Shown here in pieces: positions 14,299-48,245 of a DNA stretch of 64,000 bases. Numbering within the stretch: position 1 is the first letter of the stretch; every line of letters starts with the position of its first letter. The position numbers were made by a program, and so were the translations under genes. The notes beneath the pieces were generated by a model. The model had not been told where the DNA came from and did no database searches. It worked only from the letters and a program-made list of their open reading frames with translations. Source of the stretch: Elusimicrobiales bacterium (GTDB taxonomy: Bacteria > Elusimicrobiota > Elusimicrobia > Elusimicrobiales > UBA9959); the NCBI GenBank assembly GCA_050174915.1, contig JBFXJL010000001.1, positions 539,346 to 603,345 on the forward strand, read 5' to 3'.

Positions 14299-15057
14299 TT
14301 ATTTCTTAACTTCTTCCTTCTTGGCTTCTTCTTTCTTCGGCTCTTCCTTCTTGGCTTCGGGCTTCATGGCCGGCTTGGGCATAGCCGCGGCCTCTTCCTT
14401 GGGGATCTCGAGCAGTTCCACTTCGAAGACCAGCGTGGCGCCGCCGGGGATGGTGCCGCCCGCGCCCTGGTCGCCGTAAGCGGTGTCGGAGGGGCAGACC
14501 AGCTTGGCCTTGCCGCCCACCTTTATCTTCTGCACGCCCTCGGTCCAGCAGGGGATCACGCCGCCCAGCGGGAACTCGGCCGGCTGGCCGCGCTCCACCG
14601 AGGAGTCGAACACCTTGCCGTCGGGGAAGGTGCCGTGGTAGTGGACCTTCACCATGTCGGAAGCTTTGGGGTAGGCGCCCTTACCGGCCTTGACGGGGAT
14701 AACGATAACGCCGGAGGGCAGCTTCTGCGCGCCTTTCTCCTTGGCCATCTTGGCGAGAAAGGGCTTGGCGGCGTCTTTCTGCTTGGCCACGATGGCTTCC
14801 TGCTTCTTGGCCAGGTAGGCGTTGAGCTTCATGCCGTAGGTCTCGTCGGCCTTGGACTTCTGGCCGGCGAGCGCCTCGGAAAAGCCCTGCACGATGAACT
14901 TGGTCTCGTCGGGGGTGAATTCGAACTGCTTGATCTTGGAGCTGACGGCCTGCCCCAGGAAATAAAGGGTCTTCTGGTCTTCCGTCATCCCGTCGTCCGC
15001 GGCGAAAGCCGGGGCGGCGATCAGACAGGCTATTGCGATTAACATGTTTCTCTTCAT
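14299..15057 (-). CDS. FKBP-type peptidyl-prolyl cis-trans isomerase, exported (FkpA-like)
   Basis: Signal peptide MKRNMLIAIACLIAAPAFA. FKBP core VHYHGTFPDGKVFDSS...GGVIPCWTEG...YGDQGAGGTIPGGATLVFEVELLEI. Unusual Lys/Glu-rich C-terminal tail KPEAKKEEPKKEEAKKEEVKK. Confidence 0.9.
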   Translation of the reverse strand: MKRNMLIAIACLIAAPAFAADDGMTEDQKTLYFLGQAVSSKIKQFEFTPDETKFIVQGFSEALAGQKSKADETYGMKLNAYLAKKQEAIVAKQKDAAKPFLAKMAKEKGAQKLPSGVIVIPVKAGKGAYPKASDMVKVHYHGTFPDGKVFDSSVERGQPAEFPLGGVIPCWTEGVQKIKVGGKAKLVCPSDTAYGDQGAGGTIPGGATLVFEVELLEIPKEEAAAMPKPAMKPEAKKEEPKKEEAKKEEVKK

Positions 15058-15112: not shown

Positions 15113-16246
15113 CTAAAGAGAGGCCGGGTATTCAGCGCGGAAGGTGGTGCCTTCCGGACCGGTAGAGAACGAAACCTTCCCCTTGAGGTACCGCTCCGTC
15201 AGCAGCCGTATGCTGTAGGTGCCCAGCCCGCGCCCGGCCCCTTTGGTGGAGAAGGAACGCTGAAAGACCTGCAGGCGGGAATCTTCCGGCATTTGCGAAG
15301 GGTTATGCACGGTGAATACGGCGCCGCTCCCGCTCTTTTTGCAGTTCAGCGTTACGGCGGCCCCCGCCGCTTCGGCTTCCAGCGCGTTCTTGGCCAGGTT
15401 GCCGATCACACGGGCGAGAAGCGTTCTGTCGGTCTGTAGGCGGACGGCTTCGCAATCCGGAGCGACAAATATTTTCTTATTCTTTGCGACCTCGTGCGCG
15501 GCAAACATGGAGGCCACCCCGTTAAGGAAAGCGGGGGCGTCCACCTCCTCGGCCTTTGGCTGAAGCTCGCCGCTCTCGGCGGCGGCCAGGTCCTTTTGCG
15601 AGAGTATCTGCTCCACCAGCCGGTCCGAAGCCGCGGCCGCGGGCTGCACGTAGCTTTTTATCTCTTCGGCGTCCGAGGCTTCCATCAGGCCGAGCAGCCC
15701 CTGCACGCCGCCTGCGGTATTGATAATATCGTGGAAGAAAAGCCGTTCCATCACTTCCCGGCGCTTGTCGCCGCTGATGTCCATCAGCGAAAGCAGCAGA
15801 AATTCCTCGCCTTCGACCTTTAGCGGCTTGGCGCTGACCTCCAGGTCCAGCTCGTCGCCGGCACTGCGTGAGAGGATGCGGCATTCCCTGGCGGCCTGCT
15901 CCCCCTTGAGCGCCTGCTCAAGCGCCTGCGCGGCCCCGCAGCGGCGGCAGGCCTGGGTCGTTCCGCAGCCCCCCTCCGCCTCGGGCGGATGTTTGCAGCC
16001 CACCAGGCTGCCCATCCGGTTGCCTATAAAGTCCGCTATGCCATGAGCGGACAGGAATTCGCGCAGGGGTTTATTGGCGAAAACCGCCTGCCGCTGCCTG
16101 TTAAGCACCAGCACGAAATTCAGCATCCCGTCTAGCATTTCGGCCACCAGCGGGGACGCCTCTATAAGGGCGAGCTGTCGTTTCACTTCCCCGGGAGCGG
16201 CAAGTTCGGCGGGCAGGTAGCTGGTAGGCAGTTTTTCTTCAGGCAT
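15113..16246 (-). CDS. sensor histidine kinase with a Cys4-containing PAS-like input domain
   Basis: H-box FFHDIINTAGGVQGL. HATPase_c blocks IGNLAKNALEA and STKGAGRGLGTYSIRLL. The N-terminal PAS-like region carries CKHPPEAEGGCGTTQACRRC. The start lies 8 nt downstream of the GspE-REC stop, so the two are probably an operon. Confidence 0.8.
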   Translation of the reverse strand: MPEEKLPTSYLPAELAAPGEVKRQLALIEASPLVAEMLDGMLNFVLVLNRQRQAVFANKPLREFLSAHGIADFIGNRMGSLVGCKHPPEAEGGCGTTQACRRCGAAQALEQALKGEQAARECRILSRSAGDELDLEVSAKPLKVEGEEFLLLSLMDISGDKRREVMERLFFHDIINTAGGVQGLLGLMEASDAEEIKSYVQPAAAASDRLVEQILSQKDLAAAESGELQPKAEEVDAPAFLNGVASMFAAHEVAKNKKIFVAPDCEAVRLQTDRTLLARVIGNLAKNALEAEAAGAAVTLNCKKSGSGAVFTVHNPSQMPEDSRLQVFQRSFSTKGAGRGLGTYSIRLLTERYLKGKVSFSTGPEGTTFRAEYPASL

Positions 16247-16253
16247 TTTTTCC

Positions 16254-18437
16254 TTATCCCAGGCGGCCGGTGCGGCGCAGCGCCGCCGCGACGCGGGCCA
16301 TCACCAGCGGCCCCTTGAACGGCTTGATCACGTAGTCGTCGGCGCCCATCTGGAAGGCCAGTTCCTGGCTCTTGTCGGAATTCTCGGTGGTCAGCATGAT
16401 CACCGGCAGGTCCAGCAGGCCCAGCGCGCCGCGCACGCCTTTTACCAGGTCGTAGCCGTTCATGCGGGGCATGTTGATATCCGAGATCAGCAGGTCGGGG
16501 GCCGGCCCCTCGGCTATTTTAGTGAGGGCCTCTTCCCCGTCGGCGGCTTCCACAGCCTCGTAGCCGGCGTTCTCTATGAATTTTTTCAGCAGCATGCGCA
16601 TGATGGGGTCGTCATCGGCTATCATCACCCGCGGCTTGCCGGCGGGCGCGGAAGGCGGCGCTTTTTCCTGCGCCGGAACGGCGGCCGCGGCCGGGGCGGC
16701 GGCTGTAACCGCAGGCGCAACCTGTTCCCCGGCTTTCTCGAGTTTCAGGTACGGCCCCAGTTCTTTCAGGTCGGACTGTCCCGCAGCCAGGTGCCAGAGC
16801 GCGTCTTTGGTGATGGTGCGCAGGGCGCCGGTCTCTATGGCGGCCCTGGTTATCTGCTCGGCGGTGGCGTTGTTGTTTATGAGTTCCTTAACTTTGGGGT
16901 TGAGCGCCAGGAGCTCCACTATGGAGGTGCGCCCGGTGTAGCCGCTCATCTCGCAGGCCTTACAGCCCACCGCGCGGCAGTATTTTTCCTCAAAGCCGTT
17001 CTCGCCCAGGGCCCGGAGTATTCCAGGGTCGGCTTCGGCCGCCGTGACCTGCTGCCGGCAGGCCGGGCAGAGCCGGCGCACCAGGCGCTGAGCGGTAATG
17101 GCCAGCAGGCCGGGAGAGATCTTGAAGTGGTCCACCCCCATGTCCACCAGGCGCGAAAGCGTGGAAACGGTGTCATTGGTGTGCAGCGTCGAAAGCACCA
17201 GGTGGCCGGTCATGGCGGCCTGGAAGGCTATGTCGGCCGTCTCCTTGTCGCGGATCTCGCCCACCATGATGATGTCCGGGTCCTGGCGCAGCACCGAGCG
17301 CAGCACGGCGGCGAAGTTGAGCCCCTGCTTTTCGTTTACCTGCACCTGGTTGATGCCGGCCAGCTTGTACTCTACGGGGTCCTCGGCGGTGACCACGTTG
17401 GTGGTCTCGCTCTTGACCTTGTTGAGCACCGAGTAGAGCGTAGTGGTCTTGCCCGAGCCGGTGGGGCCGGTGACTAGTATTATACCCTGCGTGGAAGTAA
17501 GGCACTTGTCCAGGCCGTCAACAACCTCGGGCGCGAAGCCCAGCTTCTCGAAGGGCACCTCGGCGGCGCGCTGGTCGAGGATGCGCATCACCACCTTCTC
17601 GCCGAAGGAGGTGGGCAGCGTAGACACGCGCAGCCCCACTTCCGCCGTGCCTATGCGCAGCTTGGTGCGGCCGTCCTGCGGCACGAAATGTTTGGAGACG
17701 TCCAGGTCGGACATGATCTTGATGCGCGACACCACGGGCCCCATGGCGATGTAGCGCGGCAGCCGCATCACGTTCTTGAGTTCGCCGTCCACGCGGAAGC
17801 GCACATGGCTGGATTTCTCCTCGTGCTCTATGTGTATGTCGGAGGAGCGCTTGCGGTAAGCCTCTGAAATTATGGAATTGACCAGCTTGATGACCGGCGA
17901 GGTAACGGAGGCGTCCTGGGAATCGGCCGAGGTCCTCTCCCCCAGCACCAGGATTTCCTCGGGCGACTCCACCTTGCTGAGCAGGTCGAAGATCACCGTG
18001 TCGGCGCTGAACAGCTGCTCCATGCAGGCGTCCACCTCGCGCGGCAGGCAGAACTGCGGCAGCACCCTGCGGCCGGTCAGGGCCTCCACGTCGGCCTGGG
18101 CCGTCATGTCCGCGGGATCGGCCATCGCCACTTTTATTTCGGCGTCCATGACCTTAACCGGTATCAGCCCGTGCTTGCGGCAGATCTTCTCCGGCAGCAG
18201 CGAGAGCGCGAACTTGTCCACCTTTTCCGGGTACAGGGACAAATACGGGGTTTTAAAAAGAGCTTCGGCGGCCCGGACGAACTTGTCCTGGGTCACCAGG
18301 CCGGCGTCGATCAGCGCGTGTGAGAGGTATTTCTTTTTTTCGGCGCGCAGCCGCTCCACAGTCTGCGGGGGCAAATCCGGCAACCCCCCCGCCACCCTGA
18401 CCGCCCATTCGTCGCTAAAGCGCCATGTATCAGCCAT
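16254..18437 (-). CDS. GspE/PilB-family secretion/pilus ATPase fused to a C-terminal response-regulator receiver domain
   Basis: 727 aa. It has a T2SSE N-domain, Walker A VTGPTGSGKTTTLYS, the blocks VGEIRD and LVLSTLHTN, and tetracysteine CPAC...CKAC. A Pro/Ala linker leads into the REC domain: VMIADDDPIMR...LLISDINMPRMNG...DYVIKPF. Confidence 0.85.
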   Translation of the reverse strand: MADTWRFSDEWAVRVAGGLPDLPPQTVERLRAEKKKYLSHALIDAGLVTQDKFVRAAEALFKTPYLSLYPEKVDKFALSLLPEKICRKHGLIPVKVMDAEIKVAMADPADMTAQADVEALTGRRVLPQFCLPREVDACMEQLFSADTVIFDLLSKVESPEEILVLGERTSADSQDASVTSPVIKLVNSIISEAYRKRSSDIHIEHEEKSSHVRFRVDGELKNVMRLPRYIAMGPVVSRIKIMSDLDVSKHFVPQDGRTKLRIGTAEVGLRVSTLPTSFGEKVVMRILDQRAAEVPFEKLGFAPEVVDGLDKCLTSTQGIILVTGPTGSGKTTTLYSVLNKVKSETTNVVTAEDPVEYKLAGINQVQVNEKQGLNFAAVLRSVLRQDPDIIMVGEIRDKETADIAFQAAMTGHLVLSTLHTNDTVSTLSRLVDMGVDHFKISPGLLAITAQRLVRRLCPACRQQVTAAEADPGILRALGENGFEEKYCRAVGCKACEMSGYTGRTSIVELLALNPKVKELINNNATAEQITRAAIETGALRTITKDALWHLAAGQSDLKELGPYLKLEKAGEQVAPAVTAAAPAAAAVPAQEKAPPSAPAGKPRVMIADDDPIMRMLLKKFIENAGYEAVEAADGEEALTKIAEGPAPDLLISDINMPRMNGYDLVKGVRGALGLLDLPVIMLTTENSDKSQELAFQMGADDYVIKPFKGPLVMARVAAALRRTGRLG

Positions 18438-18504
18438 GCCTTTATTATATTAATTTAAAGACAACGGCTCTCGAAAAAGACGAAAGCCGAAATTTAAAAC
18501 CCCT

Positions 18505-18537
18505 ATAAACACGAAGCCCCAGACTTGCGTCCGGGGC
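18505..18537 (-). terminator. intrinsic terminator downstream of tRNA-CAT
   Basis: The minus strand reads GCCCCGGAC GCAA GTCTGGGGC (9-bp stem including one G-U pair, GNRA loop) followed by TTCGTGTTTAT. Confidence 0.55.
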
Positions 18538-18578
18538 ACGGTCCTGATATTTCTAGTTCCAGGTTCGAATCTCTTAAA

Positions 18579-18655
18579 TGGTTGCGGGGGTTGGATTTGA
18601 ACCAACGACCTCAAGGTTATGGGCCTTGCGAGCTACCAGGCTGCTCTACCCCGCA
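18579..18655 (-). tRNA. tRNA with anticodon CAT (elongator Met or Ile2-type), CCA encoded
   Basis: Hand-folded cloverleaf, 77 nt: TGCGGGG TA GAGC AGCCTGGTA GCTC G CAAGG CCCATAA CCTTG AGGTC GTTGG TTCAAAT CCAAC CCCCGCA ACCA. All four stems are perfectly paired. It is not initiator-like: positions 1-72 are paired and the anticodon stem has only two G-C pairs. The anticodon loop has C where U33 is normally found. Confidence 0.85.
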
Positions 18656-18733
18656 GTATTATTATACCACAAGGTTCAAGCGGTTGCAACATTTATCGTC
18701 GGGAATAATTACATTCTAAGACGGTGACATGTA

Positions 18734-18785
18734 GTGATCACCTGAAAAATGATCGACTCAAAGTGATGATCGGATTTGTGATCGG
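18734..18785. repeat. cluster of GTGATC(G/A)-type octamers (left flank of the Fic cassette)
   Basis: GTGATCA (18734), TGATCGA (18750), GTGATGATCGG (18763) and GTGATCGG (18778). TGATCGGATTTGTGATCGG here matches TGATCGGATTGGTGATCGC at 20851-20869. Confidence 0.75.
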
Positions 18786-18874
18786 TTTGGGCGGAAACCC
18801 GAGAATTGATGCCTAGTGCTGGCTGGTGATTACTAGCCGCCCTTCAACTGGTCGCAATTACAGTTGGAACACCA

Positions 18875-19738
18875 TCACTCGCCGCGGCGGTAGGTCAAGA
18901 TCATTCCTGCCGAATCTTTCAGCAGGAGGTGCTTGGAGCTGACCGCCACCAAGTTGTATACTATCCGTGCCGCGGAGGAGTCCCGCCCCCCTGCGCTCAC
19001 ACAATCCAGTTCCAGCTTCGCCTCGTCCTCATCCAGCCTCCAGTTCAAGCAGGCAAGAGCGGCCATGTTTACTGATTTAGCTTCGCCTCCGGATTTCAGA
19101 CTAAAACCCGCCTCTGCGCCCGGCATACTGTCCACGGAATGCAGCCAGGTGCCCACAAGGTCGGATTCTTTCACGTTGTATCCGTGAATATATTCTTCGC
19201 CGGAATTGAATTTTACTATTCCCGCTACGGCAATAACTGCCAGAATAACGATCCAAACCTGCCCTGACGAGCCCGCTACCGGCATTTCCAACTGCCTATG
19301 AAAGGCCCACCCGAACGCTCCAAGAAGCATCGAGCCTAATACAAGTGCGGTTAGCACTACCCCCACAAAACTTCCAGCCTGCCCCATAGCAGCCGCTTCG
19401 AACACAAAGAACATTATAAGACTGGGCAATGCAATCAGGATACGCCAAAGAAACGACCATAAAATGCCCGGCAAGGCCATCCCATATTCTTTTAACGCTA
19501 CTTTCTTCGCAGAATACACCAGCGCAGCCATCAGCAGACAGAAGCCGCTGTAGCCCAACAAATTTTTCCCTGCTATCTTTTGCAGATCCGGGACAATTTC
19601 CACAATTGCATAGAACAAGCCATAGGGCAACATTGCCCGCCATAACAATGCCCAGCCAATCTTCAGGTTCTGTCTGCAAAGCAAAGACAGGGGTTTTGTT
19701 AGGCTAATATGCGGTGGATTGATAAAATCAAACCTCAT
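18875..19738 (-). CDS. hypothetical polytopic membrane protein with a soluble C-terminal domain
   Basis: 287 aa. About 5 hydrophobic segments are followed by a soluble tail (NVKESDLVGTWLH...). It overlaps the upstream Fic gene by 11 nt, indicating an operon. G+C is lower than the surroundings. Confidence 0.6.
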   Translation of the reverse strand: MRFDFINPPHISLTKPLSLLCRQNLKIGWALLWRAMLPYGLFYAIVEIVPDLQKIAGKNLLGYSGFCLLMAALVYSAKKVALKEYGMALPGILWSFLWRILIALPSLIMFFVFEAAAMGQAGSFVGVVLTALVLGSMLLGAFGWAFHRQLEMPVAGSSGQVWIVILAVIAVAGIVKFNSGEEYIHGYNVKESDLVGTWLHSVDSMPGAEAGFSLKSGGEAKSVNMAALACLNWRLDEDEAKLELDCVSAGGRDSSAARIVYNLVAVSSKHLLLKDSAGMILTYRRGE

Positions 19739-20729
19739 ACTTCCCGGTCTTATGACCCCCGGAACGTTTTACAAACCCGGCGCCCAGCAAAGGCTTCAGA
19801 ATAAAATGCGCACCGGGCTTTGTTACTTTCAACACGGACATTATTTCCTGTATGCCGCGAGGGGCTTCTTTCAGGAGACCTAATAGACGCTCCTGGTTCT
19901 TTGTTAATGAAACGGATTTGTTCCTGGTGAGGGTGCGGATAGAATCTATGCGCTTCCAAGTGCGTTCAAGGGCTTCCAGCACAGTCTCGGAGGAGTACTC
20001 TACCCAGCCGGAAACATCCCCGCCCTGCGTCTGGACTCGGTTCAAGGCATGATAATAGGCCTGTCTGTCCTCCAAGAAGACTTCGTCCACGGCGAAAATG
20101 TGGTTGGTGTCGAAATGTTTGCGATAAAGTTCCCAAGTTGCCAAGGCCCGGCCCACGCGGCCATTGCCGTCGCCAAAGGGATGGATATACTCGAACTGGT
20201 AATGCAGGATGGCAGAACTTACCAGCGCGGGCCAGTCTTTACCCGGACCATTAAGCCAGTCGCATAATTCTCCGGTCAAATACGGCACTGAGGCCGGCGG
20301 CGGCGGGATATGCCCCCCCACAAAGACCTTATAATCCCGGAAATCGCCCACGGGGCCGCGGTCCAGCGCGTTCTGGCGGCCTATTATCGAATGCAGTTTA
20401 AGTACTTGGGGGACCTTTATAGCGGCAATAGCCGAGTTCTTGCCGATAAAGCGCAAAACCTCGAAATAGTTAAGTATTTCCTGCACCGCGCGCGGTTTGG
20501 CGCCGGGCACTGTGCCGCCTGCGGCGAGGGTCTTGATCTCCGGCAGGGTAAGGGGATTGCCCTCTATGGCGGTAGAGCCGTGAGTCTGCCTGGCCAGCGC
20601 TTCGCGCTGCATGTCCGGCAACCAGCTTACGCCTATGGCGGCGCTCTGTATCTTAGCCTTCAGTTCGGCGGCCTGCTCGATAGTCTTGAGAAGATGGTGC
20701 GTCGGGCTGAATTTTGGATTGAATGGCAT
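19728..20729 (-). CDS. fic: Fic-family protein (AMPylase-type) with an N-terminal inhibitory motif and a C-terminal winged-helix-like tail
   Basis: Canonical Fic motif IHPFGDGNGRVGRA. The N-terminal HGSTAIEGNPLT fits the (S/T)xxxE(G/N) auto-inhibitory helix. Confidence 0.9.
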   Translation of the reverse strand: MPFNPKFSPTHHLLKTIEQAAELKAKIQSAAIGVSWLPDMQREALARQTHGSTAIEGNPLTLPEIKTLAAGGTVPGAKPRAVQEILNYFEVLRFIGKNSAIAAIKVPQVLKLHSIIGRQNALDRGPVGDFRDYKVFVGGHIPPPPASVPYLTGELCDWLNGPGKDWPALVSSAILHYQFEYIHPFGDGNGRVGRALATWELYRKHFDTNHIFAVDEVFLEDRQAYYHALNRVQTQGGDVSGWVEYSSETVLEALERTWKRIDSIRTLTRNKSVSLTKNQERLLGLLKEAPRGIQEIMSVLKVTKPGAHFILKPLLGAGFVKRSGGHKTGKYEV

Positions 20730-20982: not shown

Positions 20983-23900
20983 TTAACCGGGACCGGGGGA
21001 ATCCAGCATCTTGCGGACCTTGCACAGGAGCAGGTCCGGGCTGAAAGGTTTGGGCAGCAGCTCCGCCCCGCTCTCCAGCAGGTCCTGGCTTTGTATGATG
21101 TCGTCGGTATAGCCGGAAACCAGGAGGATCTTCCCCTTGAAGCCCCGATGCGCGAGCTCGCGGGACAACTCGAGGCCGCTCATGCCCGGCATCAGCATGT
21201 CGGTAATGACCAGCTTAACTCCCGGCGCTTTCTCCAGGGCGGCCAGGGCTTCAGCCCCCCCGGCCACGGCCGTCACAACGTAGCCGTTCTCCCGCAGGAC
21301 GCGCTCCCCGAGCCTGCGCAGCTGCTCGTCGTCTTCCACGAGAAGTATCTTCTCACCGCCGGAAACCTCGTTCTCCCCGCAAACAGGAGCCTTCAGTTTC
21401 CCCTCGGGGTCGGGCCGCTCGCCGGCGGCCAGCGGGAAGTACAGCTTGAAAGTTGTGCCCTTGCCGGGCGAACTGGCCAGTTTCACCGCGCCCCCGCTCT
21501 GGGCCACTATACCGTAGACCATGGGCAGCCCCAGGCCCGTGCCTTTTCCCTTCTCCTTGGTAGTGAAGAACGGCTCGAAGATTTTCCCCATGACCTCCGG
21601 GGTCATGCCGCTGCCGGTGTCGGAGACGCGCAGCACGACGAAGGGCCCCGGCCTGAGGTTCGGGTTCTCGGCGAAGAATTGTTCGGGAGGAGTCTCGGCG
21701 CGGGTGGAGATGGCAAGCGTGCCGCCTTTGGCCATGGCGTCCCTGGCGTTGACCGCCAGGTTCATGATTACCTGGCCGATCTGCCCGTAGTCGGCCAGTA
21801 TCAGGCATTGCCCGGGGAGGAGATCTATCTTAAGCTTTATATCCTCGCCGATAACGCGCTTGAGCATTTTCACCGTGCTCTCGACGGACGCGTTGAGGTC
21901 CAGCACCACGGGTTTCAGCACCTGCTTGCGGCTGAAAGCCTGGGGAACGCCCTCGTAGGCGAGCCCTATCAGCCTGGGGGCCTCCTCCATGGAATTCTTC
22001 CCGTCGGGCTGCGTAGGCGGCGAGAACTGTTTCGGATGGGCGCCCAGGATCTGCTCGCGGGTGCAGCCGAAGACCCGCTCAGCGGCCTTGTTGCAATCTA
22101 TCCACCTTCCGTCGGCGAAGAGCAGGATGGCGCCTTCGGCCGTCTCGAACAGCGTGCGGTACTTCTCCTCGCCGGCCCGCGTCGCTTCTTCCGCGCGCTT
22201 ACGGCCGGTGATGTCTAGGGACGTGCCTTTTAAGACCGCCGGGCAGCCGTCGGGGCCGTATTCCAGTTTGCCCCGGACATAAAGCCAGCGCAGTTCCTTG
22301 TCGCTCGGCCGGATTATCCGGAATTCCCTGTCGAAATCCAGGCCTTTAGCCAGCACTTCGTTCTGCAGGTATGCCTGTACCGCGGCCCGGTCCTCCGGAT
22401 GTATGCCGGCCGCCCAGCCCTCCATGGTATGCGGATAAGCCTTGTCTATCCCGTAGACACGGTCCATGGTCTCTGAGGTTTTAAAGACGCCGGTCTTGAG
22501 ATCCAGCGCCCATGTGCCCAGCCCCGCGTTATGCTGCGACTCGAGTATCTCCTGCGCGCTTTCCCGCAGTTTTTGCTCGGCCAGCCTGGCTTCCGTCAAA
22601 TCGATATTGGTGCCTATCATCCGCAAAGGCTTGCCGTCGGCGCCGCGCAGCGTGTGAGAATCCGCTTTAAGATAGCGCACCGTGCCGTCCGGCCAGACGA
22701 TGCGGAATTCGGGGTCGTACTCCCGCTCGCCGCGCAAGGCGGCGTCTATGTCGGCCTGCACCCGGGCCTTGTCCTCCGGGTGTATCCGGGCAACCCAGGC
22801 CTCGTAGGCGCCGCCGAAATCCCCGCGGCGTACATTGTAGAGCCGGTACATAGAATCGTCCCAACTCAGTTCGTTCTTCGGGATGTCCCAGTCCCAGATG
22901 CCGATATTGGCCGCCTGGACGGCCACCGACAGGCGCTCAGCCGTCAGTTCAAGCTCCCGGTTCTTCTCTTCAAGTTCTTTTTCAGCCAACTTGCGCTCGG
23001 TTATATCCCGGAAAATGCCGAGGATAAAATCTCCCCCGCCCAGCCGTACCCGCGAGGCCCGTATTTCCACCGGGACAGTCTTGCCGCCTTTGGAGAGCAG
23101 CACGTCCTCCAGCGGGGTGTCGGGATTTTCAGATAAGTGCTGTTTAAAAGTGTCGCCTTTGCTCTCCGGGGAGTCCGCCGCGGGGTGAAGCATGGCCCGG
23201 TTCTGGCCTATGAGTTCTTCCCGGGCGCGGCCGAGCAGGCGGCACAGGGCCGGGTTGCAGTCCAGCAGCTCCCCGTTTGCGGGATCCGCTATGGCTATGC
23301 CGTCCTGGGCGGAGTCGAACAACGCCCGATATCTTCCCTCCGCCTGCTTGCGGTCCGTTATGTTCTTGCCGAAAACGGAAATGGCGAAAGGCCGGCCTTC
23401 CTTCTTTAGCAGGTTCAGTTCCAGCAGCATGGTTATGCCGGATTTATAGGTGGTATATTCCGCGGCATACCTGCCGTCCCTGCGCGCACCGGAGAAAGCG
23501 TTCTTCCACCACGCGACATACTGCGGGTCCTGAAACAGGTCCTGGGGCCTCTTGCCGGCCAGGTCGTCTATGCCGCGGCTCTTGGAAAAGTATGTTCCGA
23601 AGGCGGTATTCCAGGTCATGATCCCGAAATTCTCCGGGTCCACGGTCCAGATGAAGTCCTGGGTACCTTCGAAGATGGCGCTCAGCAGCGCTTTGTTCTC
23701 AATTGCGCGTTTGCGGTCCACGCTCAAGGTGGTGATCACGCGGGTCATGCGCTCCAGCAGATCCAGGATGACAGGAATCCTCGCCTCGTCCACCACCGGC
23801 ACTTCGCGCGCGGCGGCCAGGTAGTCATCCTCCGGGAAGCCGTACCGCTGCGCCTGGGCGCGAAAGCGCGCCTCGTCTGGCGGCTGCGTCATGAACTGGC

Positions 23901-24294
23901 CGATGAAAACATTGGCTACGTGCTTGCCCTCTATAACGATAGGCGAGGCGCAGTCGGTCAGGCCGTTGGCGCAGGGAAAAATGGCGTAGTGCTTGCCCTC
24001 GGTAAGCTTCTGCGCTATGTCGGTATCGCTCGCTACGCAGAGGACGCAGGTTTCCGGGTTTACCCGGTGAAACTGCGTGCAGATGCGCTGCCAGCGGGAG
24101 GAAAGCAGCACGTTGGCCTTCAGGTCAATGATCGCGACCGGGATTTTGATCAGCTTGTAATAAGACTCGAACAGCTGCTGCACTTCCGTCTCTTTGAGCA
24201 GTTGCGCGAGCATTGCCGAATCGGCCGGCAGCGCGCCGCCGTAGCGGTAAGCCGCGGGCACATCCGTATCTGTTATGCGTTCGTAGGAAACCAT
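20983..24294 (-). CDS. PocR-domain / multi-PAS sensor protein with HATPase_c and receiver domains but no recognisable DHp (H-box) domain
   Basis: 1103 aa. The N-terminus is PocR-like (KIPVAIIDLKANVLLSSRWQRICTQFHR...CASPIVIEGKHVANVFIGQF). At least 5 PAS/PAC units follow. HATPase_c blocks: IGQVIMNLAVNARDAM, DTGSGMTPEV, GTGLGLPMVYGIV. REC: ILLVEDDEQLR...LVITDMLMPGMSG...LLPKPF. Confidence 0.85.
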   Translation of the reverse strand: MVSYERITDTDVPAAYRYGGALPADSAMLAQLLKETEVQQLFESYYKLIKIPVAIIDLKANVLLSSRWQRICTQFHRVNPETCVLCVASDTDIAQKLTEGKHYAIFPCANGLTDCASPIVIEGKHVANVFIGQFMTQPPDEARFRAQAQRYGFPEDDYLAAAREVPVVDEARIPVILDLLERMTRVITTLSVDRKRAIENKALLSAIFEGTQDFIWTVDPENFGIMTWNTAFGTYFSKSRGIDDLAGKRPQDLFQDPQYVAWWKNAFSGARRDGRYAAEYTTYKSGITMLLELNLLKKEGRPFAISVFGKNITDRKQAEGRYRALFDSAQDGIAIADPANGELLDCNPALCRLLGRAREELIGQNRAMLHPAADSPESKGDTFKQHLSENPDTPLEDVLLSKGGKTVPVEIRASRVRLGGGDFILGIFRDITERKLAEKELEEKNRELELTAERLSVAVQAANIGIWDWDIPKNELSWDDSMYRLYNVRRGDFGGAYEAWVARIHPEDKARVQADIDAALRGEREYDPEFRIVWPDGTVRYLKADSHTLRGADGKPLRMIGTNIDLTEARLAEQKLRESAQEILESQHNAGLGTWALDLKTGVFKTSETMDRVYGIDKAYPHTMEGWAAGIHPEDRAAVQAYLQNEVLAKGLDFDREFRIIRPSDKELRWLYVRGKLEYGPDGCPAVLKGTSLDITGRKRAEEATRAGEEKYRTLFETAEGAILLFADGRWIDCNKAAERVFGCTREQILGAHPKQFSPPTQPDGKNSMEEAPRLIGLAYEGVPQAFSRKQVLKPVVLDLNASVESTVKMLKRVIGEDIKLKIDLLPGQCLILADYGQIGQVIMNLAVNARDAMAKGGTLAISTRAETPPEQFFAENPNLRPGPFVVLRVSDTGSGMTPEVMGKIFEPFFTTKEKGKGTGLGLPMVYGIVAQSGGAVKLASSPGKGTTFKLYFPLAAGERPDPEGKLKAPVCGENEVSGGEKILLVEDDEQLRRLGERVLRENGYVVTAVAGGAEALAALEKAPGVKLVITDMLMPGMSGLELSRELAHRGFKGKILLVSGYTDDIIQSQDLLESGAELLPKPFSPDLLLCKVRKMLDSPGPG

Positions 24295-29287: not shown

Positions 29288-29419
29288 ATAGCCACCGCCT
29301 CTTATAATTTACTTTAAATTCTACATATTATGCCCCCGCCCCGCAAAGAGGCTAAACCCCGTTATTTTGTATCATACACTCAAAGCGCGGGGCGGCAAAC
29401 AGGGGGCGGTTTTACGCTT

Positions 29420-32779
<3,360 letters not shown>

Positions 32780-40620: not shown

Positions 40621-40929
40621 TTACTTACCGGGGGCGGCGGGTCCGGCGTAAACCAGCGTCTTTATACGGCCGCCGTAGTTGACCCTGACCTTGCAGCGGC
40701 CGACGGCGCCTTCCGGCAGGAAGCACTCGTAGGGGCAGAGACGGCACTGCAGGCCGTTGCACGCGGGCACGGCAAAGCGGCCCGGCCGCACGTTCGGGTG
40801 CTCCGGCGGGTAGACGAGGGAGAAGGTGGATGGAGGCGGGTAAAAAGCCGCAAGGGCGGAGGCGCCCAGCGCCGCGCAGGCGGTTAATACCGCCCACAGC
40901 GCCGCCGCCTTCCGCCCTTGCAGTTTCAT
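40621..40929 (-). CDS. small exported Cys-rich protein resembling only the N-terminal motif of the AmmeMemoRadiSam radical-SAM enzyme
   Basis: ORF 40621..41046. The start is moved to ATG 40929 (MKLQGRKAAALWAVLTACAALGASALAAF, signal-like; TAATG overlap with the LOG stop). LQCRLCPYECFLPEGAVGRCKVRVNYGGRIKTLVYAG matches the V-C-x-L-C-P-x-x-C-x-[ILV]-x-x-G-x-x-G-x-C-x-V-R-x-N-x-x-G-x-[LI]-x-[ST]-L-V-Y-G pattern that precedes the CxxxCxxC core in PflX-type enzymes. The protein then stops. Confidence 0.6.
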   Translation of the reverse strand: MKLQGRKAAALWAVLTACAALGASALAAFYPPPSTFSLVYPPEHPNVRPGRFAVPACNGLQCRLCPYECFLPEGAVGRCKVRVNYGGRIKTLVYAGPAAPGK

Positions 40930-41789
40930 TATTTCCCGTTGGCCAGCGGGTACTTCTTGTAGAAGTCCTCTATATGCTCGAGGATCTCGGCGCCGGTCTC
41001 GGCGTACCTGAACAGCTTGAGGTCTTCCTTGGCGATATAGCCCCACTTGGCCATGTTAGGGAAGTTGATCACGTCCTGCCAGTAGTCCTTGCCGACCAGG
41101 ATGATGGGCAGGCGGGTCTTCTTGCCGGTCTGCACCAGCGTCAGCACCTCGAAGAGTTCGTCCATGGTGCCGAAGCCGCCGGGGAAAGCCACCAGCGCGC
41201 GGGCCCGCATGACGAAGTGCATCTTGCGGATGGCGAAGTAGTGAAAGCGGAAGCAGAATTCCGGGGAGATGTAGGGGTTGGGGCCCTGCTCCATGTCGAG
41301 CGTGATGTTGAGGCCGATGTTCTTGGCGCCGGCGTCGTGGGCTCCGCGGTTGGCGGCTTCCATGATGCCGGGGCCGCCGCCGGTGACCACCACGAGCTTG
41401 CGGTCCTTGAACACGTCCGCCTGCGAGACCAGGCGGCCGAAGTCGCGGGCCACGTCGTAATACTTGACGGACTTCTTGAGCCCTTCCACCGAAGCCAGCT
41501 TGCTCTTGAGCAAGGGATTCTTAGGGTCCTTGCGGAGCATGGCGCGCACTTGGGCCGACCGCTCCTCGGACTGCGGCTTATCCCAGATGCGGGCGCTGCC
41601 GAAGACCACGACCGTGGACTTTACGCCGTGCTCGCTCAGCGTCATCTCCGGCTTCTGCAGCTCCAGTTGCAGGCGCACCGGGCGCATCGCGTCGCTGCTG
41701 AGAAATTCGGGGTCCAGGTAGGCTTTCCGGTAGGCTTTGGCCCTGCGAAGCGTCATAACTTCCTTGCTGATCTTGGGTTTCTTGTTCAC
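40929..41789 (-). CDS. LOG-family (TIGR00730, lysine-decarboxylase-like) nucleotide phosphoribohydrolase
   Basis: 286 aa. Motifs VVTGGGPGIMEAANRGA and FPGGFGTMDELFEVLTLVQTGK. Confidence 0.85.
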   Translation of the reverse strand: MNKKPKISKEVMTLRRAKAYRKAYLDPEFLSSDAMRPVRLQLELQKPEMTLSEHGVKSTVVVFGSARIWDKPQSEERSAQVRAMLRKDPKNPLLKSKLASVEGLKKSVKYYDVARDFGRLVSQADVFKDRKLVVVTGGGPGIMEAANRGAHDAGAKNIGLNITLDMEQGPNPYISPEFCFRFHYFAIRKMHFVMRARALVAFPGGFGTMDELFEVLTLVQTGKKTRLPIILVGKDYWQDVINFPNMAKWGYIAKEDLKLFRYAETGAEILEHIEDFYKKYPLANGK

Positions 41790-41819
41790 GGTTGCTCCTT
41801 GTTGCGTTGTGTTGCGGAT

Positions 41820-43703
41820 CTATGTGCGCGCGCTGGGCGCCTGGCGGCCCAGCCAGGCCGCGGCCGCCGCGGCCATGCGCTCCGGCGAAAGGCCGGTGTC
41901 GGCGTAAAGCTCCTCGGGCTTGCCCTGTTCCACGTAGGCGTCGGCGATGCCGAGCCGCAGCACGCGGGCCTGGATGTCTTCGGCGTTGAGGTACTCCAGC
42001 ACGGCCGAACCGAAGCCGCCGGCCAGCGCGCCGTCCTCGGCCGTCACCAGCGGGCCGGCCGCGGCCAGCTCCCGGATCAGGTCGCCGTCGAGGGGCTTGA
42101 TGAAGCGCATGTCGGCCACCCCGGCGTCTATGCCGGAGGCTTTCAGCAGCTCGGCCGCCCGCAGCGCCGGGTGTACCCGGTTGCCGATGGCCAGGAAATT
42201 CAGGTCGCGCCCGCTCGAGAGGATCCGCCCTCTGCCGATCGGCAACGGCTTAGGCTCGGGGTCCATGGACACGCCATAGCCCCGGCCGCGGGGATAGCGC
42301 AGCAGCGCGGGCAGGCCGCAGGCGAAAGCCGTAGCCAGCATGTGCTGCAGCTCGTTCTCGTCGGCCGGCGCCATGGCTACCACGTCGGGCAGCGTGCGGA
42401 AGATGGCCATGTCGAAAACGCCGTGATGCGTGGGCCCGTCCTCTCCCACCAGGCCGGCGCGGTCCATGGCGATGACCACCGGCAGTTTCTGCAAAGAAAC
42501 GTCGTGCTGCACCTGGTCGTAGGAGCGCTGCATGAACGAGGAGTAGACCGCGACCAGGGGGCGGGCGCCTTCGGCGGCGAGGCCGGCGGCGAAAGTGACG
42601 GCGTGCTCCTCGGCTATGCCCACGTCGTAGTACCGGCGCGGGAAGGCGTCGCGGAACTTGTCCAGGCCGGTGCCTTCGGGCATCGCGGCCGTGATGGCGC
42701 AGATGCGGGGATCTTTTTTTGCCAGCCGCACCAGGGTGTCGCCGAACACGGCGGTGAAAGTGGGAGCGCCGCCCCCGCCGCTTTTCCTGACCAGCTCGCC
42801 GGTCTCGATGTCGAACTTGGGCGTGCCGTGAAAATGGGTGGGCGCGTCCTCGGCGGGCTCGTAGCCGCGGCCCTTCTTGGTCACCACGTGCAGCAGCACG
42901 GGCCCCTTGAGTTTCTGGACGTAACCGAGCACCTCTACGAGCTCCTCGATATTGTGGCCGTCCACGGGGCCGTAATAATGGAAGCCCATCTCCTCGAAGA
43001 TCATGCCGGGAAAGAACATGACCCGGGCGCGCTTGGCCACGCGCAGGATCTTCTTGCCCCAGAACTCGAAGCGGTTGAGGAACAGCTCGAACTTGCGCTC
43101 GGCGTTCTGCACCGTGCCCAGCGTCAGCAGCTTGGTGAGGATCTTGCCCAGGCGCCCGACGCGCTGCGAGATGAACATCTGGTTGTCGTTGAGCACCACC
43201 AGCAGGTCCGTGTTCAGCTGGCCGACGTTCTGCATGGCCTCCCAGGCCATGCCGCCGGTCATCGCGCCGTCGGCCACCACCGCCACCACGCGGTGCGCGG
43301 TCCCGGCCTGGTCGCGCGCGGCGGCCATGCCGGCCGCGGCCGACAGGGCCGTGGAGGCGTGGCCGGCGCCGAAGGCGTCATACTCGGACTCGTAGCGCTT
43401 GAGGAAGCCCGACAGGCCGCCCTTGGTGCGGATGGTGTGGAACTTATCGGCGCGCCCGGTGAGGATCTTGTGGGCGTAGGCCTGGTGCCCGGTGTCGAAG
43501 ACCAGGCGGTCGCGGGGCGTGTCGAAGACGTAATGCAGCGCGAGGATCAGGTCGGTCGAGCCCAGGCTGCTGGCTAAATGCCCGCCGGTGCGGCTTACGC
43601 CCTCTACGATGAGCTTGCGCACCTCGGCCGCCAGGCGCGGCAGCTCGGCCGCGTTCAGCTTCTTGATGTCTTCCGAGCCTCTGATATTGTTGAGCAATGA
43701 CAT
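41820..43703 (-). CDS. dxs: 1-deoxy-D-xylulose-5-phosphate synthase
   Basis: 627 aa. Motifs GGHLASSLGSTDLILALHYVF, DTGHQAYAHKILTGR, ThDP motif GDGAMTGGMAWEAMN and PDVVAMAPADENE. TAATG overlap with the ispA stop. Confidence 0.95.
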   Translation of the reverse strand: MSLLNNIRGSEDIKKLNAAELPRLAAEVRKLIVEGVSRTGGHLASSLGSTDLILALHYVFDTPRDRLVFDTGHQAYAHKILTGRADKFHTIRTKGGLSGFLKRYESEYDAFGAGHASTALSAAAGMAAARDQAGTAHRVVAVVADGAMTGGMAWEAMQNVGQLNTDLLVVLNDNQMFISQRVGRLGKILTKLLTLGTVQNAERKFELFLNRFEFWGKKILRVAKRARVMFFPGMIFEEMGFHYYGPVDGHNIEELVEVLGYVQKLKGPVLLHVVTKKGRGYEPAEDAPTHFHGTPKFDIETGELVRKSGGGGAPTFTAVFGDTLVRLAKKDPRICAITAAMPEGTGLDKFRDAFPRRYYDVGIAEEHAVTFAAGLAAEGARPLVAVYSSFMQRSYDQVQHDVSLQKLPVVIAMDRAGLVGEDGPTHHGVFDMAIFRTLPDVVAMAPADENELQHMLATAFACGLPALLRYPRGRGYGVSMDPEPKPLPIGRGRILSSGRDLNFLAIGNRVHPALRAAELLKASGIDAGVADMRFIKPLDGDLIRELAAAGPLVTAEDGALAGGFGSAVLEYLNAEDIQARVLRLGIADAYVEQGKPEELYADTGLSPERMAAAAAAWLGRQAPSART

Positions 43704-45727: not shown

Positions 45728-45917
45728 ATGGCAAAATGGCAGACAGGCCCAAAAACGCCCGTTCGCCGACATTATAGTATACACTAATGATAAAGCATTT
45801 CAATGACAGATTTGTTACAGTCCGCGGCGCTTTCTCCGCCCCTTGCGGTTCTCCTTGTGCCCGCCGCCCGCACTATAATATAATCGGTTAATACGCATAT
45901 TAATGCGGGGGACCCTA

Positions 45918-47423: not shown

Positions 47424-47441
47424 CTCCCGAGGTAAACTATT

Positions 47442-48215: not shown

Positions 48216-48245
48216 AGTCAGCGGCCGCTTACCGAGGCACAGCTC

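What the first reader, a model, noticed from the sequence alone, without database searches (positions are those of the whole stretch)
15113..18437. Orphan GspE/PilB secretion ATPase fused to a receiver domain and paired with its own histidine kinase
The 727-aa protein has a complete T2SS-E/PilB architecture (N-domain, Walker A GPTGSGKT, Asp/His boxes, tetracysteine CPAC…CKAC). It continues through a Pro/Ala linker into a canonical receiver with acidic pocket DDD, phospho-Asp in LLISDINMP, and Lys in VIKPF. Eight nucleotides downstream starts a soluble histidine kinase. No PilC/GspF platform, pilin, secretin or PilM-Q gene is nearby, and the next element upstream is a tRNA. This implies direct phosphorylation control of a hexameric secretion/pilus motor ATPase, an uncommon output for a two-component pair.
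Basis: partly seen in the sequence, partly recalled or inferred. Interest (0 to 1): 0.55.

Follow-up and report, generated by a model that had tools for sequence, protein, structure and literature searches.

The report
Pilus-motor ATPase fused to phospho-receiver
An Elusimicrobia bacterium encodes a type IV pilus/secretion motor ATPase with a two-component receiver domain fused to its C-terminus and its own sensor kinase next door, a conserved but unstudied arrangement that suggests the motor is switched directly by phosphorylation.

Summary
ORF 16254..18437(-) is a 727-aa MshEN + T2SSE + Response_reg protein. Seven nt downstream, ORF 15113..16246(-) is a soluble PAS–DHp–CA histidine kinase with an invariant Cys4 motif.

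- **The fusion is real.** All of the 120 best homologues (50–93% id, named ones Elusimicrobia MAGs) carry the receiver except one, which I showed to be a chimeric contig. The phospho-acceptor residues and all ATPase motifs are invariant or nearly so.
- **The kinase pairing is a conserved module.** It recurs at 69% and 57% identity, the latter in unrelated flanks. It is lost in some relatives and replaced by other kinases in others.
- **No pilus or secretion partner is nearby.** No platform, pilin or secretin gene lies in the 64-kb window or within 8–10 kb of the gene in eight related loci.
- **The ATPase is PilB-like but fits no curated family.** It scores below the PilB and GspE equivalog cut-offs, and its c-di-GMP motif is degenerate.
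- **The architecture is not unique.** It also occurs in Gemmatimonadota, Omnitrophota, Actinomycetota and a Deltaproteobacteria MAG, often beside kinases. Elusimicrobia also have a REC–PilB–REC paralogue inside a phosphorelay cluster.

I found no published description. The mechanism (phosphorylation gating hexamer activity or engagement) is inferred, and the machine it drives is unidentified. I rate it a new variant of a known kind, of moderate interest.

The parts
16254..18437 (-). PilB-like ATPase with a C-terminal receiver (727 aa), a response regulator whose output domain is a secretion/pilus ATPase
   Evidence: Pfam finds MshEN, T2SSE and Response_reg. The best solved relatives are Geobacter and Myxococcus PilB at about 398 bits, ahead of GspE at about 350 bits. 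119 of the 120 best homologues share the fusion.
18255..18404 (-). N-terminal four-helix bundle (residues 12-61), MshEN_N-like, with a degenerate c-di-GMP tandem motif. It is preceded by a family-specific conserved WRFxDEW motif (residues 5-11).
   Evidence: Helices 12-18, 24-32, 38-44 and 50-61 have block-mean pLDDT of 87-92. The tandem-motif score is 11 of 22, against a median of 17 for canonical PilBs. F7, D9 and E10 are invariant and W11 is at least 90% conserved.
18000..18257 (-). MshEN / T2SSE_N1 domain (residues 61-146)
   Evidence: Pfam PF05157, E 2.2e-15.
16758..17903 (-). T2SSE ATPase core (residues 179-560). It contains Walker A 324-331 (17445..17468), E394, the His box H412/H419 and the tetracysteine C457/C460/C492/C495.
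   Evidence: Pfam PF00437, E 2e-133. All of these motif residues are invariant in alignment A1.
16632..16757 (-). Pro/Ala-rich flexible linker (residues 561-602)
   Evidence: pLDDT is below 50 for residues 568-598. The low-complexity sequence is visible, and linker length varies among homologues (A1 has 820 columns).
16272..16631 (-). Receiver domain (residues 603-722). The phospho-acceptor D653 is the codon at 16479..16481. The acidic pocket is D608/D609, with T683 and K705. The alpha5 helix is OmpR/PhoB-like (ARVAAALRR).
   Evidence: Pfam PF00072, E 4e-29. D609, D653 and K705 are invariant; D608 and T683 are at least 90% conserved. The best natural solved match is B. subtilis PhoP, aligned through alpha5. 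The model shows a (beta-alpha)5 fold.
16247..16253 (-). 7-nt intergenic spacer (GGAAAAA) between the ATPase-REC stop codon and the kinase ATG, implying co-transcription or translational coupling
   Evidence: Sequence read.
15113..16246 (-). Soluble PAS-DHp-CA histidine kinase (377 aa). The Cys4 motif C84/C94/C100/C103 lies at 15938..15997. The phospho-His H172 is at 15731..15733. The CA domain (273-375) lies at 15122..15430.
   Evidence: HATPase_c, E 2e-12. The four Cys are invariant and H172 is at least 90% conserved across 24 homologues of 46-81% identity. The AF2 model has pLDDT 81.5. Foldseek top hits are WalK, VicK, YF1 and ThkA.
18438..18578 (-). Upstream non-coding region. It holds two terminator-like hairpins after the tRNA (18537-18516 and 18489-18465), then an A/T-rich stretch with TATAAT and AAAGG before the ATG. 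This suggests the ATPase-REC/kinase pair has its own transcription start.
   Evidence: These are pattern matches only.
14299..15057 (-). Signal-peptide-bearing FKBP_N + FKBP_C peptidyl-prolyl isomerase (FkpA/Mip-like), 55 nt downstream of the kinase. A recurrent neighbour; a functional link is uncertain.
   Evidence: Pfam and signal-like N-terminus. An FKBP follows the module in L001, L004 and L006, and parvulin/SurA-type isomerases follow it in L002.

Best explanation
This is a two-gene signalling module typical of Elusimicrobia. A cytoplasmic PAS-type histidine kinase, whose sensor carries an invariant four-cysteine (probably metal- or redox-sensing) motif, phosphorylates Asp653 of an OmpR/PhoB-like receiver. 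That receiver is tethered by a disordered linker of about 40 residues to the C-terminus of a catalytically intact PilB-type hexameric ATPase.

Phosphorylation most likely changes receiver-receiver contacts (alpha4-beta5-alpha5 dimerisation) or receiver-ATPase contacts. This would gate either hexamer assembly and ATP turnover, or engagement of the motor with its membrane platform. A type IV filament machine (pilus or pseudopilus) encoded elsewhere in the genome would then be switched post-translationally by an intracellular signal.

In this family the receiver appears to have taken over the regulatory role that c-di-GMP binding to the MshEN N-terminus plays in many other PilB/MshE ATPases.

Shown:
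- the domain architecture
- conservation of catalytic and phospho-acceptor residues
- conservation of the fusion and of the kinase pairing
- lack of local pilus genes
- a degenerate c-di-GMP motif

Inferred:
- phosphotransfer from this kinase to this receiver
- the effect of phosphorylation on the ATPase
- the identity of the machine it drives
For: - **Architecture and residues:**
- **The fusion is under long-term selection.** 119 of the 120 best homologues at 50-93% identity retain the receiver. D609, D653 and K705 are invariant.
- **The kinase is co-transcribed.** The spacer is 7 nt.
- **The same kinase family follows the gene in other genomes.** The gap is 17 nt in L004 (69% id). It is 8 nt on the P0088 contig (57% id), where the flanks are otherwise unrelated.
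- **Where this kinase is absent, other kinases can abut the gene.** A hybrid kinase overlaps the start codon by 4 nt in L002. A PAS-HisKA kinase sits 3 nt downstream in Omnitrophota L013, and a hybrid kinase lies convergent in Gemmatimonadales L011.
- **Paralogous REC-PilB-REC and PilB-REC3 proteins sit among Hpt, hybrid kinase, GGDEF and HD-GYP genes**.
- **The ATPase is PilB-like.** PDB PilB scores 398 bits against GspE 353 and PilT 127.
- **The MshEN tandem motif is degenerate.** It scores 11 of 22 against a median of 17 in 82 non-fused PilBs.
- **There is precedent in trans.** Phosphorylated PixG binds PilB1 in Synechocystis (PMC11181946), and PilG governs PilB polar recruitment in P. aeruginosa (PMC11656802).
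Against: - No platform (T2SSF), pilin, prepilin peptidase, secretin or PilMNOPQ gene is linked to the gene in any of nine loci examined. The machine it would drive is therefore unidentified.
- I could not search a whole Elusimicrobia genome. The protein could be a second, accessory ATPase rather than the motor.
- It scores below the NCBIfam cut-offs for both PilB (539 vs 675.65) and GspE (533 vs 630.25).
- The kinase pairing is missing in L001 and L005.
- No experimental data exist for any member. The structural effect of phosphorylation is pure inference, and AF2 gives no information on where the receiver docks.
Confidence: 0.55

Rival explanations
1. The protein is not a filament motor. It is a signalling ATPase: a PilB-derived hexamer recruited as the output or integrator node of phosphorelays. 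It might control exopolysaccharide, c-di-GMP turnover or another process through protein-protein contacts, or it might power an as yet unknown machine.
For: - The gene is consistently unlinked from all pilus and secretion genes.
- The related REC-PilB-REC gene sits inside a seven-gene cluster made entirely of signalling genes: REC-HD_5, REC, two hybrid kinases, REC, GGDEF-REC and Hpt.
- L091 has Hpt, MshEN-REC, PilB-REC3 and PilB-REC in a row.
- In an NJ tree, 22 REC-fused proteins, including the window's, form their own clade apart from pilB-pilT-linked PilBs (support 83).
- The protein is below the equivalog cut-offs for both PilB and GspE.
Against: - Every residue class needed for a working PilB motor is invariant: Walker A and B, Asp and His boxes, Arg residues of the N2 domain, and the Zn-binding Cys4.
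- The N1/MshEN domain, which in GspE binds the membrane partner GspL, is retained.
- Motor genes unlinked from structural genes are common in type IV pilus systems (own knowledge).
- No alternative partner is visible in the neighbourhoods.
Confidence: 0.22
2. Phosphorylation does not regulate catalysis. Instead it controls where the motor goes: the receiver acts as a built-in PilG/PixG-like targeting module that recruits the ATPase to a pole or to particular machines.
For: - Known response regulators that act on PilB (PilG, PixG) mainly affect localisation or recruitment (PMC11656802; PMC11181946).
- The long disordered linker suits a tethered adaptor better than a tightly docked allosteric domain.
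Against: - The receiver resembles OmpR/PhoB-family receivers slightly more than CheY/PilG-type ones. PhoB scores 87.5 bits against CheY 68.7, and the best natural PDB hit is PhoP. OmpR/PhoB receivers typically act by dimerisation (own knowledge).
- No polarity or chemosensory genes are nearby.
- This rival overlaps with the best explanation and is hard to separate from it by sequence.
Confidence: 0.15
3. The fusion or the pairing is an artefact (frameshift or misassembly), or the receiver is a degenerate pseudo-receiver that is never phosphorylated.
For: Metagenome contigs can be chimeric. I found one such case in this very family (L092/P0089).
Against: - The fusion is found in more than 100 independent clusters from NCBI, JGI, ENA and Logan assemblies.
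- The reading frame is continuous.
- All phospho-acceptor residues are conserved.
- A kinase is co-transcribed.
Confidence: 0.02

Closest known systems
Type IVa pilus assembly ATPase PilB (Geobacter, Myxococcus, Thermus PilF; PDB 5TSG, 5ZFR, 3JC8)
   Same: The N-terminal MshEN/N1 region, N2 domain, CTD and tetracysteine are all aligned over residues about 28-560. This is the best solved match at about 398 bits. All catalytic motifs are conserved.
   Different: - It carries an extra linker and receiver at the C-terminus.
- It scores below the TIGR02538 cut-off.
- It has no adjacent pilT or pilC, whereas PilT-like ORFs directly follow many of the canonical PilBs retrieved.
- Its c-di-GMP motif is degenerate.
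- It branches in a separate all-REC clade.
PilG/PilH-ChpA (P. aeruginosa) and PixG/PixH-PixL (Synechocystis): response regulators acting on PilB in trans
   Same: A phosphorylated receiver controls the extension ATPase. Phospho-PixG binds PilB1 (PMC11181946), and PilG controls PilB polar recruitment (PMC11656802).
   Different: - Here the receiver is covalently fused to the ATPase.
- The kinase is a simple PAS kinase, not a CheA-type kinase with a chemoreceptor.
- The receiver is slightly closer to OmpR/PhoB-type receivers than to CheY-type ones.
- There is no PATAN domain.
MshE / PilB-type c-di-GMP receptors (MshEN domain; Wang et al. 2016, PMC5013675)
   Same: The same ATPase family, with a small-molecule or signal input built into the same polypeptide. 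MshEN is reported to co-occur with REC domains in other architectures.
   Different: - The window protein lacks the RLGxxLLxxGLL...LxxxLxxQ tandem motif.
- The signal enters through a C-terminal receiver instead.
- Some distant REC-fused relatives (L012, L091) keep both inputs.
NtrC1/DctD-type bacterial enhancer-binding proteins (receiver controlling assembly of a ring ATPase)
   Same: Works-like analogy only. A receiver in the same chain as an oligomeric P-loop ring ATPase uses phosphorylation-dependent receiver dimer changes to gate ring assembly (own knowledge).
   Different: - The ATPase fold is unrelated (AAA+ sigma54 activator versus PilT-class RecA-like secretion ATPase).
- The receiver is N-terminal there and C-terminal here.
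- The output there is transcription.
FimX-PilZ-PilB (Xanthomonas, Pseudomonas)
   Same: A REC-containing regulator delivers a signal to PilB post-translationally.
   Different: The FimX receiver lacks the phospho-Asp, and the signal is c-di-GMP relayed through separate proteins. Here the receiver is canonical and fused.

Membership tests
PilT-class secretion ATPase superfamily (Pfam T2SSE, PF00437), GspE/PilB branch | Walker A, Walker B/Glu, Asp box and His box, full-length match to the T2SSE model | tested here: met
   T2SSE scores 445 bits over model positions 5-368 of 370. G324-T332, E394, E352/D353, H412 and H419 are invariant.
PilT-class secretion ATPase superfamily (Pfam T2SSE, PF00437), GspE/PilB branch | Tetracysteine zinc-binding motif in the CTD and an N-terminal N1/MshEN domain. 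These distinguish GspE/PilB from PilT. | tested here: met
   C457, C460, C492 and C495 are invariant. MshEN E 2e-15. PilT scores only 127 bits and 185 bits.
Type IVa pilus assembly ATPase PilB (NCBIfam TIGR02538 equivalog) | Score above the curated equivalog cut-off | tested here: not met
   539 bits against a cut-off of 675.65.
Type IVa pilus assembly ATPase PilB (NCBIfam TIGR02538 equivalog) | Genomic or functional association with PilC platform, PilT, PilMNOPQ and pilins | tested here: not met
   None in the 64-kb window nor within 8-10 kb in eight related loci. A whole-genome test was not possible.
Type II secretion ATPase GspE (NCBIfam TIGR02533 equivalog) | Score above the curated cut-off, and linkage to gspC-M and the secretin gspD | tested here: not met
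   533 bits against a cut-off of 630.25. No gsp genes are nearby (the same calls as for the PilB linkage row).
Two-component response regulator (receiver domain, PF00072) | (beta-alpha)5 fold with acidic pocket DD, phospho-Asp, Thr/Ser and Lys | tested here: met
   Response_reg scores 101 bits. D608/D609, D653, T683 and K705 are conserved. The fold is confirmed in the model. The domain aligns to PhoP and CheY.
Two-component response regulator (receiver domain, PF00072) | Phosphorylation by a cognate histidine kinase | not testable with these tools
   Only genomic evidence is available: a 7-nt spacer to a kinase and a conserved pairing.
OmpR/PhoB-family response regulator | Receiver plus a C-terminal winged-helix Trans_reg_C DNA-binding domain | tested here: not met
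   The best receiver matches are to PhoB, PhoP and CpxR, but there is no Trans_reg_C domain. The receiver is the last domain of the protein.
MshE-type c-di-GMP receptor (MshEN_N tandem motif) | Two 24-residue RLGxx(L/V/I)(L/V/I)xxG(L/V/I)(L/V/I)xxxxLxxxLxxQ motifs spaced by 5 residues (PMC5013675) | tested here: not met
   The best tandem score is 11 of 22 (3 + 8). The better copy, YLSHALIDAGLVTQDKFVRAAEAL, lacks the R, G and Q. The canonical PilB median is 17, and 39 of 82 score 18 or more. Binding itself was not assayed.
Class I (HisKA-type) sensor histidine kinase | DHp helical hairpin with a phospho-accepting His, plus a CA domain with N and G boxes | tested here: met
   HATPase_c 47.8 bits. 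The Pfam HisKA model is not matched. The model has DHp helices at 158-190 and 193-224. H172, D173, N287 and G336-G342 are conserved. Foldseek hits WalK, VicK and HK853 at E down to 2e-19.

The most novel reading that the evidence does not exclude
REC-fused PilB-like ATPases are an old, separate lineage of 'motor response regulators'. This includes the window's clade, the REC-PilB-REC clade and the multi-REC forms. On this reading they no longer serve classical pilus operons. They act as ATP-driven output devices of phosphorelays, either powering an undescribed envelope machine in Elusimicrobia and other poorly studied phyla, or working as signalling hexamers. In the window's family, phosphorylation would have replaced c-di-GMP as the control input.
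Probability: 0.18. Interest if true: 0.8.

Novelty: new variant of a known kind. Interest (0 to 1): 0.55.

Why it matters
How extension ATPases of type IV filament machines are switched on and off is an active question. Known inputs are c-di-GMP, PilZ/FimX, and the free response regulators PilG and PixG. For those free regulators, direct contact with the motor is missing (PilG) or rests on yeast two-hybrid assays (PixG).

A natural covalent PilB-receiver fusion with a dedicated, soluble kinase offers a minimal two-protein system. In it, the effect of receiver phosphorylation on a PilB hexamer could be measured directly by ATPase assays, oligomer analysis and cryo-EM.

It also adds a motor ATPase to the list of response-regulator output domains. 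It flags Elusimicrobia, whose pilus biology is essentially unexplored, as a phylum in which these ATPases are wired deeply into two-component signalling.

Tried and rejected
1. **A REC-less 'orthologue' next to PilC (P0089/L092).** This looked like evidence that the lineage pairs with a PilC platform and a PilS/PilR-like system. It is an assembly chimera:
   - Protein identity is about 92% up to roughly residue 400 and then collapses.
   - Nucleotide identity drops from about 0.9 to 0.35 after nt 1200.
   - GC content jumps from about 0.63 to about 0.72.
   - The PilC is 100% identical to a Rokubacteria GWC2_70_16 protein.
   I discarded it.
2. **The single genome-contig scan.** A systematic neighbourhood census in species-representative genomes was therefore not obtained. 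It did reveal REC-fused PilBs in other phyla.
3. **Whole-genome search for platform genes lacking an ATPase.** This was not possible because the tools return only 10-kb flanks.
4. **Literature searches.**
   - Searches on PilB/GspE plus receiver or fusion terms, on T2SSE plus Response_reg, and on Elusimicrobia plus pili found no description of this architecture.
   - The 2024 PilB regulation review does not mention it.
   - Herlemann 2009 and Galperin 2006 are not held.
   - The supplement of Wang 2016 lists MshEN-REC combinations, but a T2SSE-REC entry could not be confirmed.
5. **A fixed partner for the kinase family.** Paralogues of the kinase occur in other contexts: after an HD-GYP-like gene in L009, and alone in a Myxococcales genome in L008. 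The kinase family is therefore not exclusive to this module.
6. **AF2 of the full-length monomer.** It confirms the folds and the disordered linker but cannot show where the receiver docks.

Full report
**1. Observation**

The two ORFs exist as described on the minus strand: 16254..18437 (727 aa) and 15113..16246 (377 aa).

Pfam places three domains on the long protein:
- MshEN at residues 61-146
- T2SSE at residues 179-560 (445 bits)
- Response_reg at residues 604-715 (101 bits)

The short protein has HATPase_c at residues 273-375.

The spacer between the two genes is 7 nt (TAA GGAAAAA ATG), not 8. tRNA-Met lies at 18579..18655 on the same strand. It has its own promoter-like site. It is followed by two terminator-like hairpins and a TATAAT/AAAGG stretch before the ATG at 18437. 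The ATPase-REC/kinase pair therefore looks like its own transcription unit.

I scanned 35 ORFs across the 64-kb window against Pfam. None is a T2SSF platform, pilin, prepilin peptidase, secretin or PilMNOPQ protein. No prepilin cleavage signature exists in any frame.

**2. The fusion is real and conserved**

The 120 best homologues (50-93% identity) come from NCBI, JGI, ENA and Logan assemblies. Those that carry an organism name are all Elusimicrobia or Elusimicrobiales MAGs. All but one carry PF00072 after PF00437, so the source is an Elusimicrobia genome.

In a 28-sequence alignment spanning that identity range, these residues are invariant:
- Walker A
- E394
- H412 and H419
- C457, C460, C492 and C495
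- D609, D653, K705 and P706

D608 and T683 are at least 90% conserved.

An AF2 model (pLDDT 83.5) shows confident N-terminal, N2, CTD and receiver folds. Residues 568-598 form a linker with pLDDT below 50.

The single REC-less hit (P0089) is a chimeric contig. Protein identity collapses after about residue 400. GC content jumps. The neighbouring PilC is 100% identical to a Rokubacteria protein.

**3. What kind of ATPase**

Solved relatives rank as follows:

| Relative | Bits |
|---|---|
| PilB (Geobacter, Myxococcus) | about 398 |
| Thermus PilF | 371 |
| GspE | 343-353 |
| BfpD | 138 |
| PilT | 127 |

NCBIfam scores PilB at 539 bits and GspE at 533 bits. Both are below their equivalog cut-offs of 675.65 and 630.25.

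I built an NJ tree of 130 ATPase cores with PilT as outgroup and 100 bootstraps:
- The window protein, its Elusimicrobia relatives and 11 other representatives form a clade of 22. All 22 carry a C-terminal receiver (support 83).
- A REC-PilB-REC family forms a separate deep clade (support 100).
- Further C-terminally fused proteins from other phyla branch unresolved near the base of the canonical group.
- PilT-like ORFs directly follow many of the canonical PilBs.

The tree uses a simple distance method. The representatives in it were selected for having a receiver. The number of independent fusion events is therefore open.

**4. The receiver**

Among natural proteins, the receiver is closest to OmpR/PhoB-family receivers:
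- B. subtilis PhoP scores 83.9 bits.
- CovR/VicR-like and CpxR proteins score about 78 bits.
- H. pylori CheY scores 77.5 bits, so the margin over CheY-type receivers is small.
- The alignment runs through an alpha5 helix reading ARVAAALRR.

That family typically signals by alpha4-beta5-alpha5 dimerisation (own knowledge). There is no DNA-binding domain.

**5. c-di-GMP input**

I scored the MshEN tandem motif defined by Wang et al. (PMC5013675).
- The window protein scores 11 of 22, and no member of its family scores higher.
- The median for 82 non-fused PilBs is 17, and 39 of them score 18 or more.
- A few distant REC-fused proteins (L012, both L091 genes, P0246) keep a full motif.

In the window's family the receiver is therefore the only recognisable regulatory input.

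**6. The kinase**

The 377-aa protein models as a PAS-like domain (about residues 44-156), then DHp helices (158-224), then a CA domain. The model has pLDDT 81.5. Foldseek matches WalK, VicK, YF1, ThkA and HK853.

Across 24 homologues of 46-81% identity:
- H172 (FFHDIINTAGG) is at least 90% conserved.
- C84, C94, C100 and C103 in the PAS insert are invariant.

The invariant cysteines suggest a metal or redox cofactor. That is an inference.

**7. Is the pairing conserved?**

*The same kinase follows the gene*
- L004 (69% id): a 17-nt gap, with the same FKBP-TerC synteny as the window.
- The P0088 contig (57% id): an 8-nt gap, in entirely different flanks.
- L006: a kinase present but split into two ORFs.
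These include the adjacent locus tags A3J79_08540 and A3J79_08545.

*The kinase is absent*
- L001, which is otherwise syntenic with the window.
- L005.

*A different kinase lies next to the gene*
- L002 (50% id): a 1466-aa GAF-CHASE3-PAS hybrid kinase with Hpt overlaps the start codon by 4 nt.
- L007: a CheB-CheR-PAS-HisKA_3 kinase and a GerE-type regulator lie upstream.

Paralogues of the kinase also occur elsewhere in other contexts.

The ATPase-REC plus PAS-Cys4 kinase is thus a conserved module within one Elusimicrobiales subclade, but not an obligate pair. None of these loci has pilus or secretion genes.

**8. Wider distribution**

A search with the C-terminal 298 residues against 1.84 billion representatives found many 700-740-aa proteins matched end to end.

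Pfam and source names show several variant architectures:
- REC-MshEN-T2SSE-REC (P0288, and P0330 from Elusimicrobiales)
- REC-Hpt-REC-MshEN-T2SSE-REC (P0253, Elusimicrobia)
- MshEN-T2SSE-REC-REC-REC (P0246)

Contexts of these variants:
- P0288 is flanked only by signalling genes: REC-HD_5, REC, two hybrid kinases, REC, GGDEF-REC and Hpt.
- P0393 lies after Hpt and MshEN-REC genes and before a second T2SSE-REC gene.

The genome scan also returned MshEN-T2SSE-REC proteins outside Elusimicrobia:
- Gemmatimonadales (L011, with a convergent hybrid kinase)
- Omnitrophota (L013, with a PAS-PAS-HisKA kinase 3 nt downstream)
- Actinomycetota (L044, L059)
- A Deltaproteobacteria MAG (L012)

**9. Mechanism (inferred)**

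The conserved catalytic core argues for a working hexameric ATPase. The conserved phospho-acceptor and the co-transcribed kinase argue for real phosphorylation.

The most economical model has the cytoplasmic PAS-Cys4 kinase phosphorylating D653. The tethered OmpR-like receivers, six per hexamer, then change their pairing or docking. That gates hexamer assembly or turnover, or gates engagement with the platform.

This is analogous in logic to NtrC1/DctD (own knowledge). It resembles a covalent version of phospho-PixG binding PilB1 (PMC11181946) and of PilG controlling PilB recruitment (PMC11656802).

The driven machine is unidentified. Published surveys report Tad-like and type II/IV pilin genes in Elusimicrobia (PMC6668835; PMC8809381). 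I could not examine a whole genome.

**10. Novelty**

No paper in the searchable library describes a receiver-fused PilB/GspE. Wang et al. note only that MshEN co-occurs with REC in other architectures. Public annotations call these proteins generically 'GspE', 'PilB' or 'T2SS/T4P/T4SS family ATPase'.

I therefore rate this as a new, uncharacterised variant of two known kinds (PilB-type motors and response regulators with enzymatic outputs). It is moderately surprising and experimentally tractable.

Noticed in passing
window 45903..48920 (+): A 506-aa protein with a FliG_C domain (residues 356-457, E 1e-9) is directly followed by a MotA/ExbB-family gene (47442..48215) and a MotB_plug+OmpA gene (48246..48920). 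No other flagellar genes are in the window. This is a FliG-like/stator trio without a flagellum.
   Followed up: no
window 18656..20729 (-), next to tRNA-Met: A low-GC stretch (0.527, against about 0.63 in the flanks) carries a Fic/DOC gene (19728..20729) and a lipocalin-like gene (18875..19738). It is inserted between tRNA-Met and the rest of the locus. In relatives L001 and L004 the gene upstream of the ATPase-REC is different. This is probably a small island at the tRNA.
   Followed up: partly
window 18405..18425 (-), residues 5-11 of the ATPase-REC: A family-specific N-terminal motif W-R-F-x-D-E-W precedes the four-helix bundle. F7, D9 and E10 are invariant and W11 is at least 90% conserved across 50-93% identity. 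It has no counterpart in the MshEN c-di-GMP motif. Its function is unknown; it may be a partner-binding peptide.
   Followed up: no
window 14299..15057 (-); L001 12288-13085; L004 11380-12180; L006 14066-14848; L002 12190-14128: A signal-peptide-bearing peptidyl-prolyl isomerase repeatedly lies just downstream of the ATPase-REC(/kinase) module. It is FkpA-like FKBP in the window and three relatives, and parvulin/SurA-type in the 50%-identity relative. This may be plain synteny, or a link to envelope protein folding.
   Followed up: partly
L092 (ENA ERZ27254739 k141_1154926), junction near locus position 7200: This public metagenome contig is an inter-phylum chimera joined inside pilB at the conserved Walker B region. 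The Elusimicrobia part lies upstream. A Rokubacteria pilB 3' end with pilC and pilS/pilR-like genes lies downstream. Its product P0089 sits in protein databases as a 564-aa 'PilB'.
   Followed up: yes
L091 7982..15663; L010 1..12903: These are clusters made almost entirely of signalling genes around PilB-like ATPases. L091 has Hpt, MshEN-REC, MshEN-T2SSE-REC3 and MshEN-T2SSE-REC in tandem. L010 has REC-HD_5, REC, hybrid kinase, REC, GGDEF-REC, hybrid kinase, REC-MshEN-T2SSE-REC and Hpt. The L091 ATPases keep an intact c-di-GMP motif, so they would take both phosphoryl and c-di-GMP inputs.
   Followed up: partly
window 52520..63963 (-) and 40830..43577 (+): Two giant adjacent genes: one of 1536 aa with Kelch, fn3 and CarboxypepD_reg repeats, and one of 2252 aa with no significant Pfam match. 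These are probably surface proteins. Separately, a 915-aa ORF has first-codon-position GC of 0.90 and no Pfam hit.
   Followed up: no
window 20983..24294 (-) and 29330..32779 (+): Two large hybrid kinases flank the region: PocR-PAS-PAS-HATPase-REC (1103 aa) and CHASE3-PAS-HisKA-HATPase-REC-REC-Hpt (1149 aa). The CHASE3 kinase, or a close homologue, is also near the ATPase-REC in L004. Such Hpt-bearing kinases could be additional phosphodonors.
   Followed up: no
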